Shown here piece after piece: positions 10,872-60,733 of a DNA stretch of 64,000 nt. Each line of letters starts with the position of its first letter. Positions within the stretch are counted from its first letter, which is position 1. Made by a program: the position numbers and the translations under genes. This stretch comes from Pristiophorus japonicus. Lineage: Eukaryota. The notes under the pieces are model-generated. The model saw only the letters and a list, made by a program, of their open reading frames with translations. It made no database searches and was not told the DNA's origin. The stretch spans positions 128,216,001-128,280,000 of the forward strand of contig NC_091980.1 in assembly GCF_044704955.1 (NCBI RefSeq). Reading direction: 5' to 3'.

Positions 10872-10900
10872 CTTCAAAAATTTGTTGAAACAACAAACTG
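10872..10900 (-). promoter_or_regulatory. Degenerate iron-responsive element, copy 1
   Basis: GTTTGTTGTTTCAA-CAAATT-TTTGAAG versus canonical ...TGCTTCAA-CAGTGN-TTGAA. Confidence 0.6.
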
Positions 10901-10919
10901 AGATTTAATCAACCTCAAA

Positions 10920-11161
10920 CTCCTGTATTTATACTGCTGGATAATCCAGGGCGTGGCAACCTAGATAATGAGTGACGGTCCTCAATATCCAATCAAAAGT
11001 TGCAGCCTCTCAGAGCACCAATAAAGTAATGGGAGGAGGGGAGGTGGACTCCCAGAGCCAGTCAGATCTTTGAAGAATGAGCATCATTGGCTGACAACTC
11101 AATGAGGATCTCAATTGTCCTAACTTTCCTCAAACACAGTTCAGATATTCAGAATCACAGG
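10920..11161 (-). promoter_or_regulatory. Ferritin copy 1 proximal promoter (TATAAATA 10926-10933, CCAAT boxes)
   Basis: Block conserved in all four copies; two CCAAT and one ATTGG pentamer. Confidence 0.75.
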
Positions 11162-11598
11162 CACGGCCAAGGGTGCCATCAGCCGGTCCAGGCAGCGGGC
11201 GGTCGAGGGGGTCGTTCAAGCTGACTGCCTGCCTCTCTTCCGCTCTTACATCCGGTCCAGGGTGTCCTTGGAGATGGAGCACGCGGTGTCCACCGGTACG
11301 CTCGCGGCCTTCCGCGAGAGGTGGGCACCGGAGGGACTGGAGTGCATCATCACGCCCGGAAACCAAATTTTAATTTGATTTTACGTTTTAAAGTTTAATT
11401 TGTTTTAATTGCCGGTGCTTTTAGTGTCCCCTCCCCTTTTATAGGGGGCACTGGAAAAAATTGGATTTTAGCGCCCCAAAAAAAAAAACCCTCAAAAAAA
11501 AGGAAAAAAAGAAAGGGGCCTTGAAAATGTCTGCTGTGTCACCCAGGCGGGTGGCACGGTTTAATGTTTATGTTATTTTCAGGTAAACTCAAAAGAGT
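11162..11598 (+). mobile_element. 5'-truncated Tx1/L1-type LINE, young, in the copy 1 upstream region
   Basis: ORF2 C-terminus AKGAISRSRQRAVEG...LFRSYIRSRVSLEMEH...FRERWAP; 14-bp TSD TTCAGAATCACAGG (11148-11161, 11599-11612); empty site in copies 2-4. Confidence 0.85.
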
Positions 11599-11659
11599 TT
11601 CAGAATCACAGGTTCAGAGTTGGATCCTCTACTCTTTAGACCAATCAATTGGGAAAAAC

Positions 11660-57100: not shown

Positions 57101-58487
57101 TGCCGTCGATTTTGATGACCAGGGGGAGTGCTGTGTGGCGGGGTCAGGTTGGTGGAGGATCTTTATCTTACGGATGGTTAGCGTAAGGCCTATGCTTTTG
57201 TACGCCTCAGTGAGGGTGTTGACGATGGCTTGGAGTTCAGCATTAATATTTGAATCCATTCACAGGGGTGAAGCAATGAAATGAAGATCCACTGGGGTTT
57301 TGACAGGATGATTGCTATTTGGTATGAAATGCACAATGGGAGCAAATGCAACTGGATACATTGGGTTGATAAATTCAGGTATTTGGCATTGGGGCTCAGG
57401 ATGGGGCAAATGTTTTTCCGGAGCCTTGTGTTTAAAATCTTGGGCCTCTTGCTTTGTGCATTTAAAGAAATACATTTACTGCTTCTTCCAGCAGGATAAT
57501 ATTTTGTTGGAATTTAGTTGCACAGGTAATCCTTCAATACCTTATTCATGTGAGCATAGATCATGTTGGCAAGTTATTCGATCACGATAGGAGCAAGTGG
57601 AAGAGAATCTTTCCCAGAACCACCACGCTCGGGTATCCACACTAAACAATGAAGCTGTGACATCAAGCTGATGCTTTCCCTGCTCACCCAATTGCAGTTC
57701 CCGACGTTCAATGCACTCAGACATTACTGGTCTGTACAGTAATTGCTGCTTTACATACAAAGCTTAACAAAGTCTACAGCAGCAGTCAGTTCAGTTACTG
57801 AACAAACTGCAATAATAACTGAATAGGATCTGCTGCAAATACTGAATACAAACTGCTAATTACAGGGCTAATATTAAAGAGGATGCTAATCCAGGTCATT
57901 TTCTTCCACAGACTGAAATAATGAAACTCTGATTTACTGGAAAATGCTGCCGATGTTTAACGTGTTACAACAACTTTTATTTTGTTACACTGAATTTTCA
58001 GTTATGTAATAGCCAAGAGAATGTTCACTAGAGGGAACAGCTATTTTTATACTGCTCTGAAGCCTAAGCTCTGCCATTCCCTCTCTAAATCTATTTAAGA
58101 CACTCCCTAAAACCTACCTCTGACCATGCTTTATCCCTCAGTCAATATCTCATGGATGTGTTCAGACCATTATCATCCCCTTGAACATTTTAGGTCTTGC
58201 AACACATTTCTGCATAATCAGAGTCAATACTTCAATATGTCAGAGGAAAACCAAATTTGATTTGACTGAATCCCATAACATTGTTCCATAACTCAGTGTA
58301 ATTCTGCTTAATTGAAAGATACACAACCACTCATACATACAAGGAGACAAAACCCAGTGCAATGTTACTCAGTTTTATAGTTATGTTACAGTTCACATCT
58401 TAGCTCTTTGGACAAAGTCATAAGCCATCATTATATAATTAGGACCCCAGTCCTGCAGGCAAATACAAAAAGCTTGAACCAGTCAGT

Positions 58488-60687
58488 TTAATCACTCTCC
58501 TCCAGGGTGTGCTTGTCAAACAGGTACTCTCCCAGGCCATTCTCAGGGGCTCCCAGTCTCTTCAAGTTGGTGATGTGATCTCCAACCTTCTTGATCATCT
58601 TCACTTGTTCATCCAAGTAGTGGGACTCCAGGAAGTCACACAACTGAAAGGGGGAAACTAGTTATGTCCAGCACCAGACATCATAGAATGGCAGCTGTCC
58701 CTTAAGAATTTGGATTTTAATCCTCAAAGTGGAGGAAAGTCAAGTGGTGCAATTGAGATTGCTGGAATTACTGTATTAGATTAAATTTACTGCACAATAA
58801 GTGCTCAGATACTGAAATCACTGGGACACATTTATTAGTTACTGTCCACAGTAGGCCAGCCTCCCTTCCCTTCCCACTGCTTACCAAACAATAACAGAGA
58901 CACCAATACAAAGCTATTAGGCATGGAGATCTTTTAATTAGGCCCAAGGACAGCAAGTTTCCACAAACTCCAACTTAATAATTTAATGTGGGCTTTTTGT
59001 TAAGAACTTACATGAGGGTTGGTGCTCCCAGTGGAGAGTTTGTGCAGATCCAGCAGACTCTGGTTCACATTCTTCTCCATCTGCAGAGCTCTCTGCATCA
59101 CCTCCAGACCATTGCTCCATTCATCCTGCTCTGGTTTCTGGAAAGAAAGTTCGAACAGTTCTCTTACAATGGATTAAACAAACATTAAAAAGTATCAAAG
59201 GAAATTGGGGTGCAATCAAAAGTCTACTTTACCATGAACCCATTTGTTACAATAAAAATTTGCTATTAAGCTATCACAGCTACTAGAGTTATATTGATAA
59301 GGCAAATAGTGTAGATGTATTTGTAGGGAAGCAATGCAAGTGCATGGGGAGAAGAGAATAGAATGATATGACGACAGGGCGAGATAAAGCAAAATGTGAG
59401 GAATCTCGTGTGGAGTATAAACACCAGCAAAGTCCAGCTTGGCCAAATGGCCTGTGTGCTGTAAATTTGAAATAATGGCTTTATCACATATGGGAACATT
59501 CAGTCTAAGGGGAGCCAGACAGAAGGTCACTTTTATTGAATCAAACCTTGATGTCCACCAAGATAATTCGGCCTCCACATCGATTCTGGAATTCCATCAG
59601 TTTCTCAGCATGCTCACGTTCCTCACGTGACTGCTCCTTGAAGAACTCAGCAAAGTGACACAGGGCAACATCATCCCGGTCAAAGTAGAAGGACTATGGA
59701 GCGATCAGAAGAGTACTATATCACAAACCCATCATCATGTGTACAGCACATAACTTCAACCTCAATATTTTGCTTTCTTTCAAGGGTTTAAAACCTTACT
59801 GAACATGGAACTCCTTAATGGCAAACAAGCCAAAGGTGGGCAGAGGAAACATTACAGGGACACCCTCAAAGCCTCCCTGTAACATCCTCACTGACACCTG
59901 GGAATCACTGGCCAGAGATCGCCCCAAGTGGAAGAAGTGCATCCGGGAGGGCGCTGAGCACCTAGAGTCTCACCACCAAGAGCAGGCAACAAAAAAAAGT
60001 GTACAGCAAACTAGTCCCACCCACCCTTTCCCTCAACTACTATGTGTCCCACCTGTAACAGTTCGTGGTTCTCATATTGGACTGTTCAGCCACCGAAGGA
60101 CTCATTTTAAGAGTGGAAGCAAGTCTTCCTCTATTCCGAGGGACTGCCTTTGATGGACATTTTCATGGAAACAATCTTTTGATAGCCTTACCCAATGAAA
60201 AACCTTGGCCCAGCATCAAAGCCTTCATGTGTGTGTGTGGTGGGGCAGTGGGTGGAGGAGAGAGAAAAAAAAAGTGTTCCAGATTTCCAACACCCTTGTA
60301 GGAAAGAATACTTCCCAACTTCCCTCCTAAATGGCCTGACTAATTTTATTACATCCGCTCATTGCAAAAAGGCAAGGTAGAGAAAGTCCATGGAGTGAAT
60401 TAGATTAAGGATACAAATTCTGAATTCCATGCAGAATGTATTCCAAATAAACTTCAACAAGCTCAAAAGAGCCCAGGAAAGTGAGTCATGAACATTCAAG
60501 ATGCTCAGAATAGGTGGGCTGGATCAAGCACAGAATTAAGTAAATTCACATTCCATAGTGAAGGGCTCTGAAATGCAAAACTCACCATAGAGAGATAAAC
60601 ATAGAAGGAATAGAGCTCCATGTTGATCTGCTTGTTGACAGCATCCTCACAGCCCTGATGGTAGTTCTGACGCACTTGGGAAGCCAT
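58488..60687 (-). CDS. fth1: Ferritin H/M-type subunit copy 4, 176 aa; join 60586-60687, 59547-59693, 59012-59137, 58488-58643
   Basis: [34 protein letters not shown]...SREEREH...QMEKN...[15 protein letters not shown]...KHTLEESD*; open frame, GT-AG; TATA and poly(A) signal are mutated. Confidence 0.95.
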
Positions 60688-60704
60688 CTAGATTCTTTTT
60701 CACA

Positions 60705-60733
60705 AATCTAAACTTTGTAGAAGCAATAAACTG
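60705..60733 (-). promoter_or_regulatory. Degenerate iron-responsive element, copy 4
   Basis: GTTTATTGCTTCTA-CAAAGT-TTAGA. Confidence 0.6.

What the first reader, a model, noticed from the sequence alone, without database searches (positions are those of the whole stretch)
10872..60733. Tandemly amplified ferritin genes all carry an IRE with a mutated loop
Seen: every copy has a sequence in its short 5' UTR, a few tens of nt 3' of the TATA position, that aligns with the vertebrate ferritin IRE (TGCTTCAA-CAGTGN-TTGAA). The loop reads CAAAGT in copies 2-4 (24670-24675, 47115-47120, 60712-60717) and CAAATT in copy 1. The 3' stem is degraded in copies 2-4, and I saw no CAGTG elsewhere in these UTRs. 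Known: IRP1/IRP2 read the AGU pseudo-triloop and the bulged C, and loop mutations de-repress ferritin translation (as in FTL hyperferritinaemia-cataract alleles). Inference: the IRE was inactivated before amplification, giving a multi-copy family of ferroxidase-competent ferritins translated independently of iron, perhaps for bulk tissue-specific, stress or immune output.
Basis: partly seen in the sequence, partly recalled or inferred. Interest (0 to 1): 0.8.

Follow-up and report, generated by a model that had tools for sequence, protein, structure and literature searches.

The report
Shark ferritin array, dead iron switch
These four iron-storage (ferritin) genes, one of them broken, are a small slice of an array of roughly 300 copies whose sampled members all lack the RNA hairpin that normally ties ferritin translation to iron, which likely lets egg cells make ferritin in bulk regardless of iron level.

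Summary
The window holds 4 of about 300 tandem ferritin genes spread over 5.6 Mb. Copies 2-4 are intact with a full ferroxidase centre. Copy 1 is a pseudogene: no ATG, no exon 4, and its 'intact' stem is made by a deletion. Of 172 sampled copies, none has a canonical IRE. 119 carry a recognisable relic with G16>A (116/119) and U17>A (106/119), so the break predates their amplification; 39 have an unrelated 5' UTR. The relic changes at about the neutral rate, while CCAAT and TALE-like promoter motifs and the protein (dN/dS 0.23) are constrained. Spliced retrocopies show germ-line transcription and a start just before the relic, with no upstream exon. Two single-copy ferritins keep perfect IREs. 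The shark expansion and its ovary expression are published; I did not find the IRE loss in print. This scan reported it before on other windows of this genome. Best reading: an IRP-blind ferritin family, likely for oocytes. IRP binding and expression were not tested.

The parts
22482..24645 (-). Ferritin copy 2, intact, 176 aa; exons 24645-24544, 23654-23508, 23130-23005, 22637-22482
   Evidence: GT-AG sites, open frame, E24/Y31/E58/E59/H62/E104/Q138 present; Pfam PF00210 hit on exon 2
45221..47090 (-). Ferritin copy 3, intact; exons 47090-46989, 46418-46272, 45878-45753, 45376-45221
58488..60687 (-). Ferritin copy 4, intact frame but TATA box degenerate; exons 60687-60586, 59693-59547, 59137-59012, 58643-58488
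9090..10871 (-). Ferritin copy 1, pseudogene: start codon lost, exon 3 cut, exon 4 absent (about 1.1 kb deleted relative to duplicate L076)
24665..24685 (-). IRE relic, copy 2 (loop CAAAGT 24675-24670; C8 kept; 2 upper-stem mismatches)
47110..47130 (-). IRE relic, copy 3 (loop CAAAGT; C8>T; 1 mismatch)
60707..60727 (-). IRE relic, copy 4 (loop CAAAGT; C8 kept; 2 mismatches)
10874..10894 (-). IRE relic, copy 1 (loop CAAATT; C8>T; 3' side ends at a deletion junction)
24724..24730 (-). TATA box of copy 2 (copy 1's is at 10933-10927)
24766..24790 (-). Conserved promoter module: inverted CCAAT box (24790-24786) about 10 nt from a TALE decamer-like site (24775-24766); the same pair starts at 47229 and 60858
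   Evidence: constrained to 0.25 and 0.47 of the neutral rate across 119 copies; factor identity inferred from PMC6023610 (passages)
947..9093 (-). Decayed endogenous retrovirus-like element abutting the cut exon 3 of copy 1 (LTRs 9093-8592 and 1455-947, 88% alike; gag knuckle, RNase H, integrase and env pieces)

Best explanation
The window is part of an array of about 300 ferritin genes whose sampled 5' leaders lack a canonical IRE, so their mRNAs are predicted to escape IRP repression, and the array likely serves bulk ferritin production in oocytes. Steps: (1) A four-exon, ferroxidase-competent ferritin related to a small ferritin locus on C19 became the founder (tree and promoter similarity shown; ancestry inferred). 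(2) Its IRE took G16>A and U17>A and lost stem pairing before the type-A copies multiplied (shown by the shared state). (3) The gene was amplified by tandem and segmental duplication with birth and death of copies (shown). (4) Output is now set by copy number and by a conserved CCAAT/TALE-like/TATA promoter, not by iron (promoter constraint shown; factor binding and IRP escape inferred). (5) The product is cytosolic ferritin stocked in the oocyte as an iron store or buffer (inferred from germ-line retrocopies here and from published ovary expression in another shark assembly).
For: No C4 match among 24 genome-wide matches to the ferritin IRE core with up to 1 mismatch. RF00037 rings at 6 places, none on C4 (a lower bound, 82 candidates scored). 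Of 8 matches to CAGWG before an array-type start codon, 6 are in the array; in the census only one UTR had even the C-N5-CAGWG spacing, with 3 mismatches. Relic state G16>A 116/119, U17>A 106/119, perfect upper stem 7/119. G16 and U17 are described as required for IRP regulation, and adenine as unable to make the position-16 contact (PMC8466369, passages). The relic changes at 0.84 of the base-matched neutral rate (P about 0.08) against 0.25-0.47 for three promoter motifs. dN/dS is 0.22-0.23 among 79 intact copies; 72 of 79 keep the six ligands tested and all keep E58. Six spliced retrocopies of array-type mRNA lie on other contigs or 15 Mb away (L010, L013, L016, L017, L019, L020); L016 starts 50 nt and L013 42 nt before the ATG, as control retrocopies of the IRE-bearing genes start at their own leaders. 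Ovary-specific expression of a shark ferritin cluster is stated in 10.1101/2024.09.09.611499 (passage).
Against: No binding, reporter or expression data for these copies. Yang et al. report that some cluster copies are transcribed in fin and blood (PMC13214024, passages). 62 of 141 full-length sampled copies are broken, so much of the copy number is dead. Retrocopies show germ-line RNA but cannot tell ovary from testis or early embryo. The promoter motif pair is known from blastula-stage enhancers, not specifically oocyte genes. Folding energies do not separate relic from real IRE (z about -0.5 against -0.5 and -1.2). The relic's homology rests on 16/21 identity (P about 0.001). The 39 type-B copies have no relic, so a single loss for the whole array is not shown.
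Confidence: 0.6

Rival explanations
1. The array is a somatic iron buffer against ferroptosis or oxidative stress (the published longevity hypothesis), made constitutively because the IRE is gone.
For: PMC13214024 (passages) proposes this and reports transcripts in fin and blood; the ferroxidase centre is conserved.
Against: The same paper notes high copy numbers in sharks that are not long-lived. Another assembly shows ovary-specific expression. Constitutive somatic H-type ferritin would be expected to starve cells of iron (my inference).
Confidence: 0.12
2. IRE loss was incidental: a tissue-restricted duplicate lost it by drift, and the copy number mostly reflects an unstable, duplication-prone region, with only a few copies mattering.
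For: 62 of 141 full-length copies broken; recent 143.5-kb duplication at 95-99.5% identity; retroelement-rich spacers; the nearest single-copy relative also lacks an IRE and has lost two ferroxidase ligands.
Against: dN/dS 0.23 across 74 distinct proteins and conserved promoter motifs; the expansion is reported as syntenic between two distant sharks.
Confidence: 0.18
3. The element still works: it binds shark IRP weakly, or has been co-opted as a different 5' hairpin or DNA site.
For: C14-G18 is kept in most copies (C14 107/119, G18 95/119); slightly lower change rate than neutral (0.84, P about 0.08); a small alternative hairpin folds in many copies.
Against: G16 and U17 are both changed, C8 is lost in 32 of 119, the upper stem is perfect in only 7 of 119, and the lower-stem 3' arm is gone; 17 intact type-B and 10 intact type-A copies lack a recognisable relic.
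Confidence: 0.05
4. The likeness to an IRE is chance, and this lineage's leader arose without one.
For: Seven other matches of 15/21 or better occur in the window; type-B leaders and the nearest single-copy relative show no relic.
Against: The consensus match is reached by 18 of 20000 shuffles; near-basal copies such as L117 share 14 consecutive bases with the C19 IRE 5' arm. The functional conclusion (no IRE) would be unchanged.
Confidence: 0.05

Closest known systems
Shark ferritin clusters (10.1101/2024.09.09.611499, passages seen; PMC13214024, passages seen)
   Same: Tandem array of ferritin genes on one chromosome; one paper reports 155 FTL and 179 FTH1 annotated copies, synteny with white shark and ovary-specific expression; the other reports 59 FTH1b copies.
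   Different: Neither main text contains the term IRE; pseudogene load, two leader types and promoter motifs are not in the passages seen. Here no array copy is L-type. Supplements were not read (the bioRxiv ones are closed).
Vertebrate ferritin 5' IRE (Rfam RF00037; features in PMC8466369 and PMC2896125, passages)
   Same: Position in the ferritin leader; 16/21 identity in consensus; C14-G18 usually kept.
   Different: G16 and U17 replaced, stems broken, no Rfam hit, near-neutral change rate.
Snail yolk ferritin (Biomphalaria, Lymnaea; PMC10799875, passages)
   Same: Egg-associated ferritin without an IRE.
   Different: Secreted, with a signal peptide and a 42-aa insertion; the array proteins are 175-180 aa, start directly with the ferritin N-terminus and are amplified to hundreds of copies.
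Mammalian FTHL17 and FTMT (PMC7760355, passages)
   Same: Germ-cell-biased ferritin paralogs; FTHL17 has six copies in mouse; FTMT is not under IRE/IRP control.
   Different: FTHL17 lacks ferroxidase activity; FTMT is an intronless mitochondrial retrogene. The array genes keep three introns and the ferroxidase ligands.
Teleost H and M ferritins (PMC4117605, passages)
   Same: Four exons; Glu24/58/59, His62, Glu104, Gln138 and nucleation residues Glu54/61 present.
   Different: All five salmon isoforms keep an IRE.

Membership tests
Functional IRE (RF00037) | C14-G18 cross-loop pair | tested here: met
   Copies 2-4 yes, copy 1 no; C14 107/119 and G18 95/119 in the census
Functional IRE (RF00037) | A15-G16-U17 recognition bases | tested here: not met
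   A15 kept in 116/119; G16 in 2/119 (one of them a misregistered match); U17 in 3/119
Functional IRE (RF00037) | Bulged C8 | tested here: inconclusive
   C in 87/119; present in copies 2 and 4, T in copies 1 and 3
Functional IRE (RF00037) | Five-pair upper stem and a lower stem | tested here: not met
   Upper stem perfect in 7/119; 1-2 mismatches in the window copies; no predicted fold gives the IRE shape in the window
Functional IRE (RF00037) | Covariance-model score above the gathering threshold | tested here: not met
   No hit in the window at E<=5; positive controls L001 and L006 score 45-46 bits
Functional IRE (RF00037) | One of the 16 SELEX loop motifs used by SIREs | not tested
   The motif list is in a figure that is not held; only motifs 1 and 2 were scanned
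Functional IRE (RF00037) | IRP binding and iron-dependent translation | not testable with these tools
   Needs EMSA and reporters
Vertebrate H/M-type cytosolic ferritin | Ferritin domain and four-exon structure | tested here: met
   PF00210; exons and splice sites
Vertebrate H/M-type cytosolic ferritin | Ferroxidase ligands E24, E58, E59, H62, E104, Q138 (numbering from PMC4117605) and Y31 (recalled) | tested here: met
   Copies 2-4 all seven; 72 of 79 intact copies
Vertebrate H/M-type cytosolic ferritin | IRE in the 5' UTR | tested here: not met
   0 of 172 sampled copies
FTH1 orthologue | Linked to a bestrophin gene (human FTH1-BEST1 linkage recalled) | tested here: not met
   Bestrophin lies about 70 kb from the C14 ferritin and none on C4
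Teleost fth1b orthologue (published label for shark clusters) | Clade with teleost fth1b | not tested
   No sequences from other species were obtained; the tree holds only this genome's genes
Published shark ferritin cluster | Ovary-specific expression | not testable with these tools
   Only indirect: spliced retrocopies show germ-line RNA
Secreted yolk ferritin | Signal peptide and 42-aa insertion | tested here: not met
   Intact proteins are 175-180 aa with no N-terminal extension

The most novel reading that the evidence does not exclude
Sharks have a dedicated oocyte ferritin lineage, a vertebrate counterpart of invertebrate yolk ferritin. It budded from the L/M-type ferritin locus rather than being teleost fth1b, broke its IRE at the two IRP-contact bases first, and only then could gain from amplification to about 300 copies under a CCAAT/TALE promoter, because IRE-bearing copies would have been repressed or would have soaked up IRP. 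The expansion would then be about egg provisioning, not ferroptosis control in longevity.
Probability: 0.35. Interest if true: 0.72.

Novelty: new variant of a known kind. Interest (0 to 1): 0.5.

Why it matters
IRE control is treated as a hallmark of vertebrate cytosolic ferritin, and single loop changes cause human disease. Here a natural double loop change is fixed in over a hundred genes under purifying selection. If the reading holds, it gives a mechanism for the published shark ferritin expansion (dosage turned directly into protein in eggs), makes the competing longevity and egg-provisioning hypotheses testable, and offers a dated series of IRE decay. The expansion itself and IRE-less egg ferritins in invertebrates are already known, which limits the surprise.

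Tried and rejected
Sequencing runs: no RNA holder was listed for window:22350-24720, so no reads were laid; this says nothing about expression. Folding as a test: z-scores were weak even for the two true IREs, so they do not discriminate. A conserved replacement hairpin at the 5' end: mean z -0.5 over 80 distinct leaders, 9% below -2; not supported. CAGTG in some type-B leaders: wrong spacing to a C and no stem. L212 has a CAGAG loop but C8>T and a broken stem. A 3' UTR IRE (motif 1 or 2): 0 of 79 intact copies. Cytoplasmic polyadenylation elements by a simple pattern: 0 of 79, so a stored maternal mRNA reading gained no support. The Rfam snR83 match at 54092-54226 (E 0.13, far below threshold) was taken as chance. 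The idea that the retrovirus-like element inserted into exon 3 of copy 1 was rejected: in duplicate L076 it lies downstream of exon 4, so a later deletion joined them. Glycogen synthase as a synteny marker: hits on C13, C14 and C19, none on C4, from a search flagged as less sensitive. No search of outside protein databases was completed, so the taxon and the orthology to teleost genes remain open. Paper searches for IRE loss in shark ferritins listed nothing on it; these cover open-access text only.
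Full report
1. Observation. The four genes are on the minus strand. Copies 2-4 are intact four-exon, 176-aa ferritins with GT-AG sites and all seven ferroxidase residues (numbering of six from PMC4117605, passages; Y31 recalled). Copy 1 is a pseudogene. It has no ATG, exon 3 stops at 9090 and there is no exon 4 in the window. 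Its duplicate L076 shows that about 1.1 kb was deleted, joining exon 3 to the LTR of a retrovirus-like element, and that a 17-nt deletion created the 3' stem that looked intact. Rfam finds no IRE in the window at E<=5.

2. Is it an IRE relic? The genome has two ferritin genes with perfect IREs, on C14 (next to a bestrophin gene, hence likely FTH1) and on C19. Against the 21-nt core of the C19 IRE, copies 2-4 match 15/21 and copy 1 matches 14/21. One such match is unremarkable: the window has 10 matches of 15/21 or better, 7 of them elsewhere. The consensus leader of 119 copies matches 16/21, which 18 of 20000 dinucleotide shuffles reach. With the position in a ferritin leader, I put homology at about 90%.

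3. The real extent. The window is C4:128.216-128.280 Mb of G000. An exon-1 19-mer has 288 matches in the genome (only the first 100 were listed, 98 on C4), an exon-1-plus-promoter query has 346 candidates, and PF00210 has 1034 exon-level candidates. Sampled copies span 127.80-133.41 Mb, 88 on plus and 84 on minus. About 300 copies is therefore an estimate. The window's copies have duplicates at 95-99.5% identity about 143.5 kb away.

4. Census. I modelled 172 exon-1-bearing copies from the window and loci L021-L224; nine further copies fetched were only read for their leaders and are not counted. Four exons were found for 141: 79 intact and 62 broken; 31 were partial, many because the fetched stretch ended. 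Sampling favoured well-conserved copies, so the intact share is likely too high. 133 copies have a type-A leader and 39 (128.98-131.06 Mb) an unrelated type-B leader. Of the 133, 119 match the core at 12/21 or better; the 14 dropped are listed. In the 119: position 16 is A in 116, position 17 is A in 106, C8 is kept in 87, and the upper stem is perfect in 7. None of the 172 passes SIREs motif 1 or 2 (rules from PMC2896125, passages). Genome-wide, none of 24 matches to the IRE core with up to one mismatch is on C4. The shared double change across 5.6 Mb means the break came before the type-A amplification. Whether type B lost the IRE in the same event is not shown.

5. Is it dead? PMC8466369 (passages) lists A15, G16, U17 and C8 as all required for regulation, and says adenine cannot make the position-16 contact. 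On a tree of 119 copies the relic changes at 0.84 of the base-matched neutral rate (P about 0.08), whereas an inverted CCAAT box, a TALE decamer-like site 10 nt away and a second CCAAT module change at 0.25, 0.47 and 0.31. The first two are shared by types A and B. Such motif pairs are bound by Pbx/Prep and NF-Y in zebrafish blastulae, where NF-Y is maternally deposited (PMC6023610, passages); that they are bound here is inference. Folding z-scores were uninformative even for the true IREs.

6. Protein and transcription. Among 79 intact copies (74 distinct proteins, 86-100% identical), 72 keep the six ligands tested and dN/dS is 0.22-0.23. 73 of 79 have AATAAA within 300 nt of the stop. Six spliced retrocopies of array-type mRNA exist (L010, L013, L016, L017, L019, L020), which requires RNA in the germ line or early embryo. 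L016 begins 50 nt and L013 42 nt before the ATG, at or inside the relic; control retrocopies of the two IRE-bearing genes begin at their own leaders (-203; -149 to -159). This argues against an upstream exon supplying an IRE, but rests on two retrocopies.

7. Origin. The intact array copies form one clade apart from five single-copy genes. The nearest is C19:93,121,556: lowest dS (0.74 against 1.3 or more), best promoter alignment, no IRE, and two ferroxidase ligands lost. It lies in a four-gene C19 locus with the IRE-bearing gene and an L-like gene. The tree has no outside species and the array's root is poorly supported, so orthology to teleost fth1b is open. That the genome is a shark's is inferred from the match to the published pattern and was not tested.

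8. Known work. 10.1101/2024.09.09.611499 (passages) reports 155 FTL and 179 FTH1 annotated copies, synteny with white shark and ovary-specific expression; its main text has no 'iron', 'IRE' or 'UTR'. PMC13214024 (passages) reports 59 FTH1b copies, some transcribed in fin and blood, and links them to ferroptosis; its main text has no 'IRE' or 'iron-responsive'. I read no supplements, and they may bear on this. IRE-less egg ferritin is known in snails (PMC10799875, passages), ferritin mRNA is abundant in vertebrate ovaries (PMC1488847, passages), and FTHL17 and FTMT are mammalian germ-cell or IRE-free paralogs (PMC7760355, passages). PMC13701976 (passages) added nothing. Six searches (listings only) showed no paper on IRE loss in shark ferritins. 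The scan's own notes hold 35 entries fitting this look-up, and the eight shown reach the same reading on other windows; they are not independent support.

9. Verdict. No functional IRE: about 0.9. Loss before the type-A amplification: about 0.85. Bulk oocyte ferritin as the purpose: about 0.6. This is a new variant of a known kind: the array is published, the regulatory change appears not to be. Interest 0.5.

Noticed in passing
G000:C19:93,128,615-93,141,730 (+), L226:7621 / L225 / L008:497-730: An intron-containing, ferroxidase-complete ferritin whose frame opens upstream into an Arg/Ala/Leu-rich N-terminal extension that looks like a mitochondrial targeting sequence, with no IRE nearby.
   Followed up: partly
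G000:C19:93,121,556 (-), L226:556: Single-copy ferritin without an IRE and with E58K and H62Q; nearest relative of the array by dS and promoter.
   Followed up: partly
G000:C19:93,189,325 (+), L009: L-chain-like ferritin (K24, T58, Q104, S138) with no motif-1/2 IRE found near its first exon; an unseen upstream exon is not excluded.
   Followed up: partly
L002-L005 (C10, C12, C17, C18): Four dispersed 91-100-nt copies of the 5' end of the C19 ferritin mRNA, each with a perfect IRE and all ending at the same T-rich point; they look like tail-less retrocopies and could act as stray IREs if transcribed.
   Followed up: partly
L016 (C11:6.52 Mb); L011 and L015: L016 is a retrocopy of a partly spliced RNA (intron 1 gone, runs into intron-2-like sequence); L011 and L015 both end at the same base of exon 1.
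   Followed up: no
G000:C4:128.98-131.06 Mb: Type-B subfamily (39 of 172 sampled) with its own leader, intron 1 and a CAGCTG E-box next to the TATA box in 14 of 17 intact copies; interleaved with type A.
   Followed up: partly
window 947-9093 (-): Decayed endogenous retrovirus-like element with an env piece; LTRs 88% alike; also present beside duplicate L076.
   Followed up: partly
window 61385-62638 (-), 28151-28984 (+), 40925-41512, 49849-50631, 51481-52038 (+): Integrase, aspartyl protease, and LINE-type endonuclease and reverse transcriptase pieces between the genes.
   Followed up: no
window 17595-19837: G-rich minisatellite arrays with periods of about 29-33 and 49 nt.
   Followed up: no
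G000 C13:66.4, C14:168.6, C19:97.5 Mb: Three glycogen synthase loci, two of them within 2-4.5 Mb of ferritin loci.
   Followed up: no
type-A exon 1: Third codon positions change far less (2.5 per site) than intron 1 (6.1), which may reflect gene conversion across exons.
   Followed up: no
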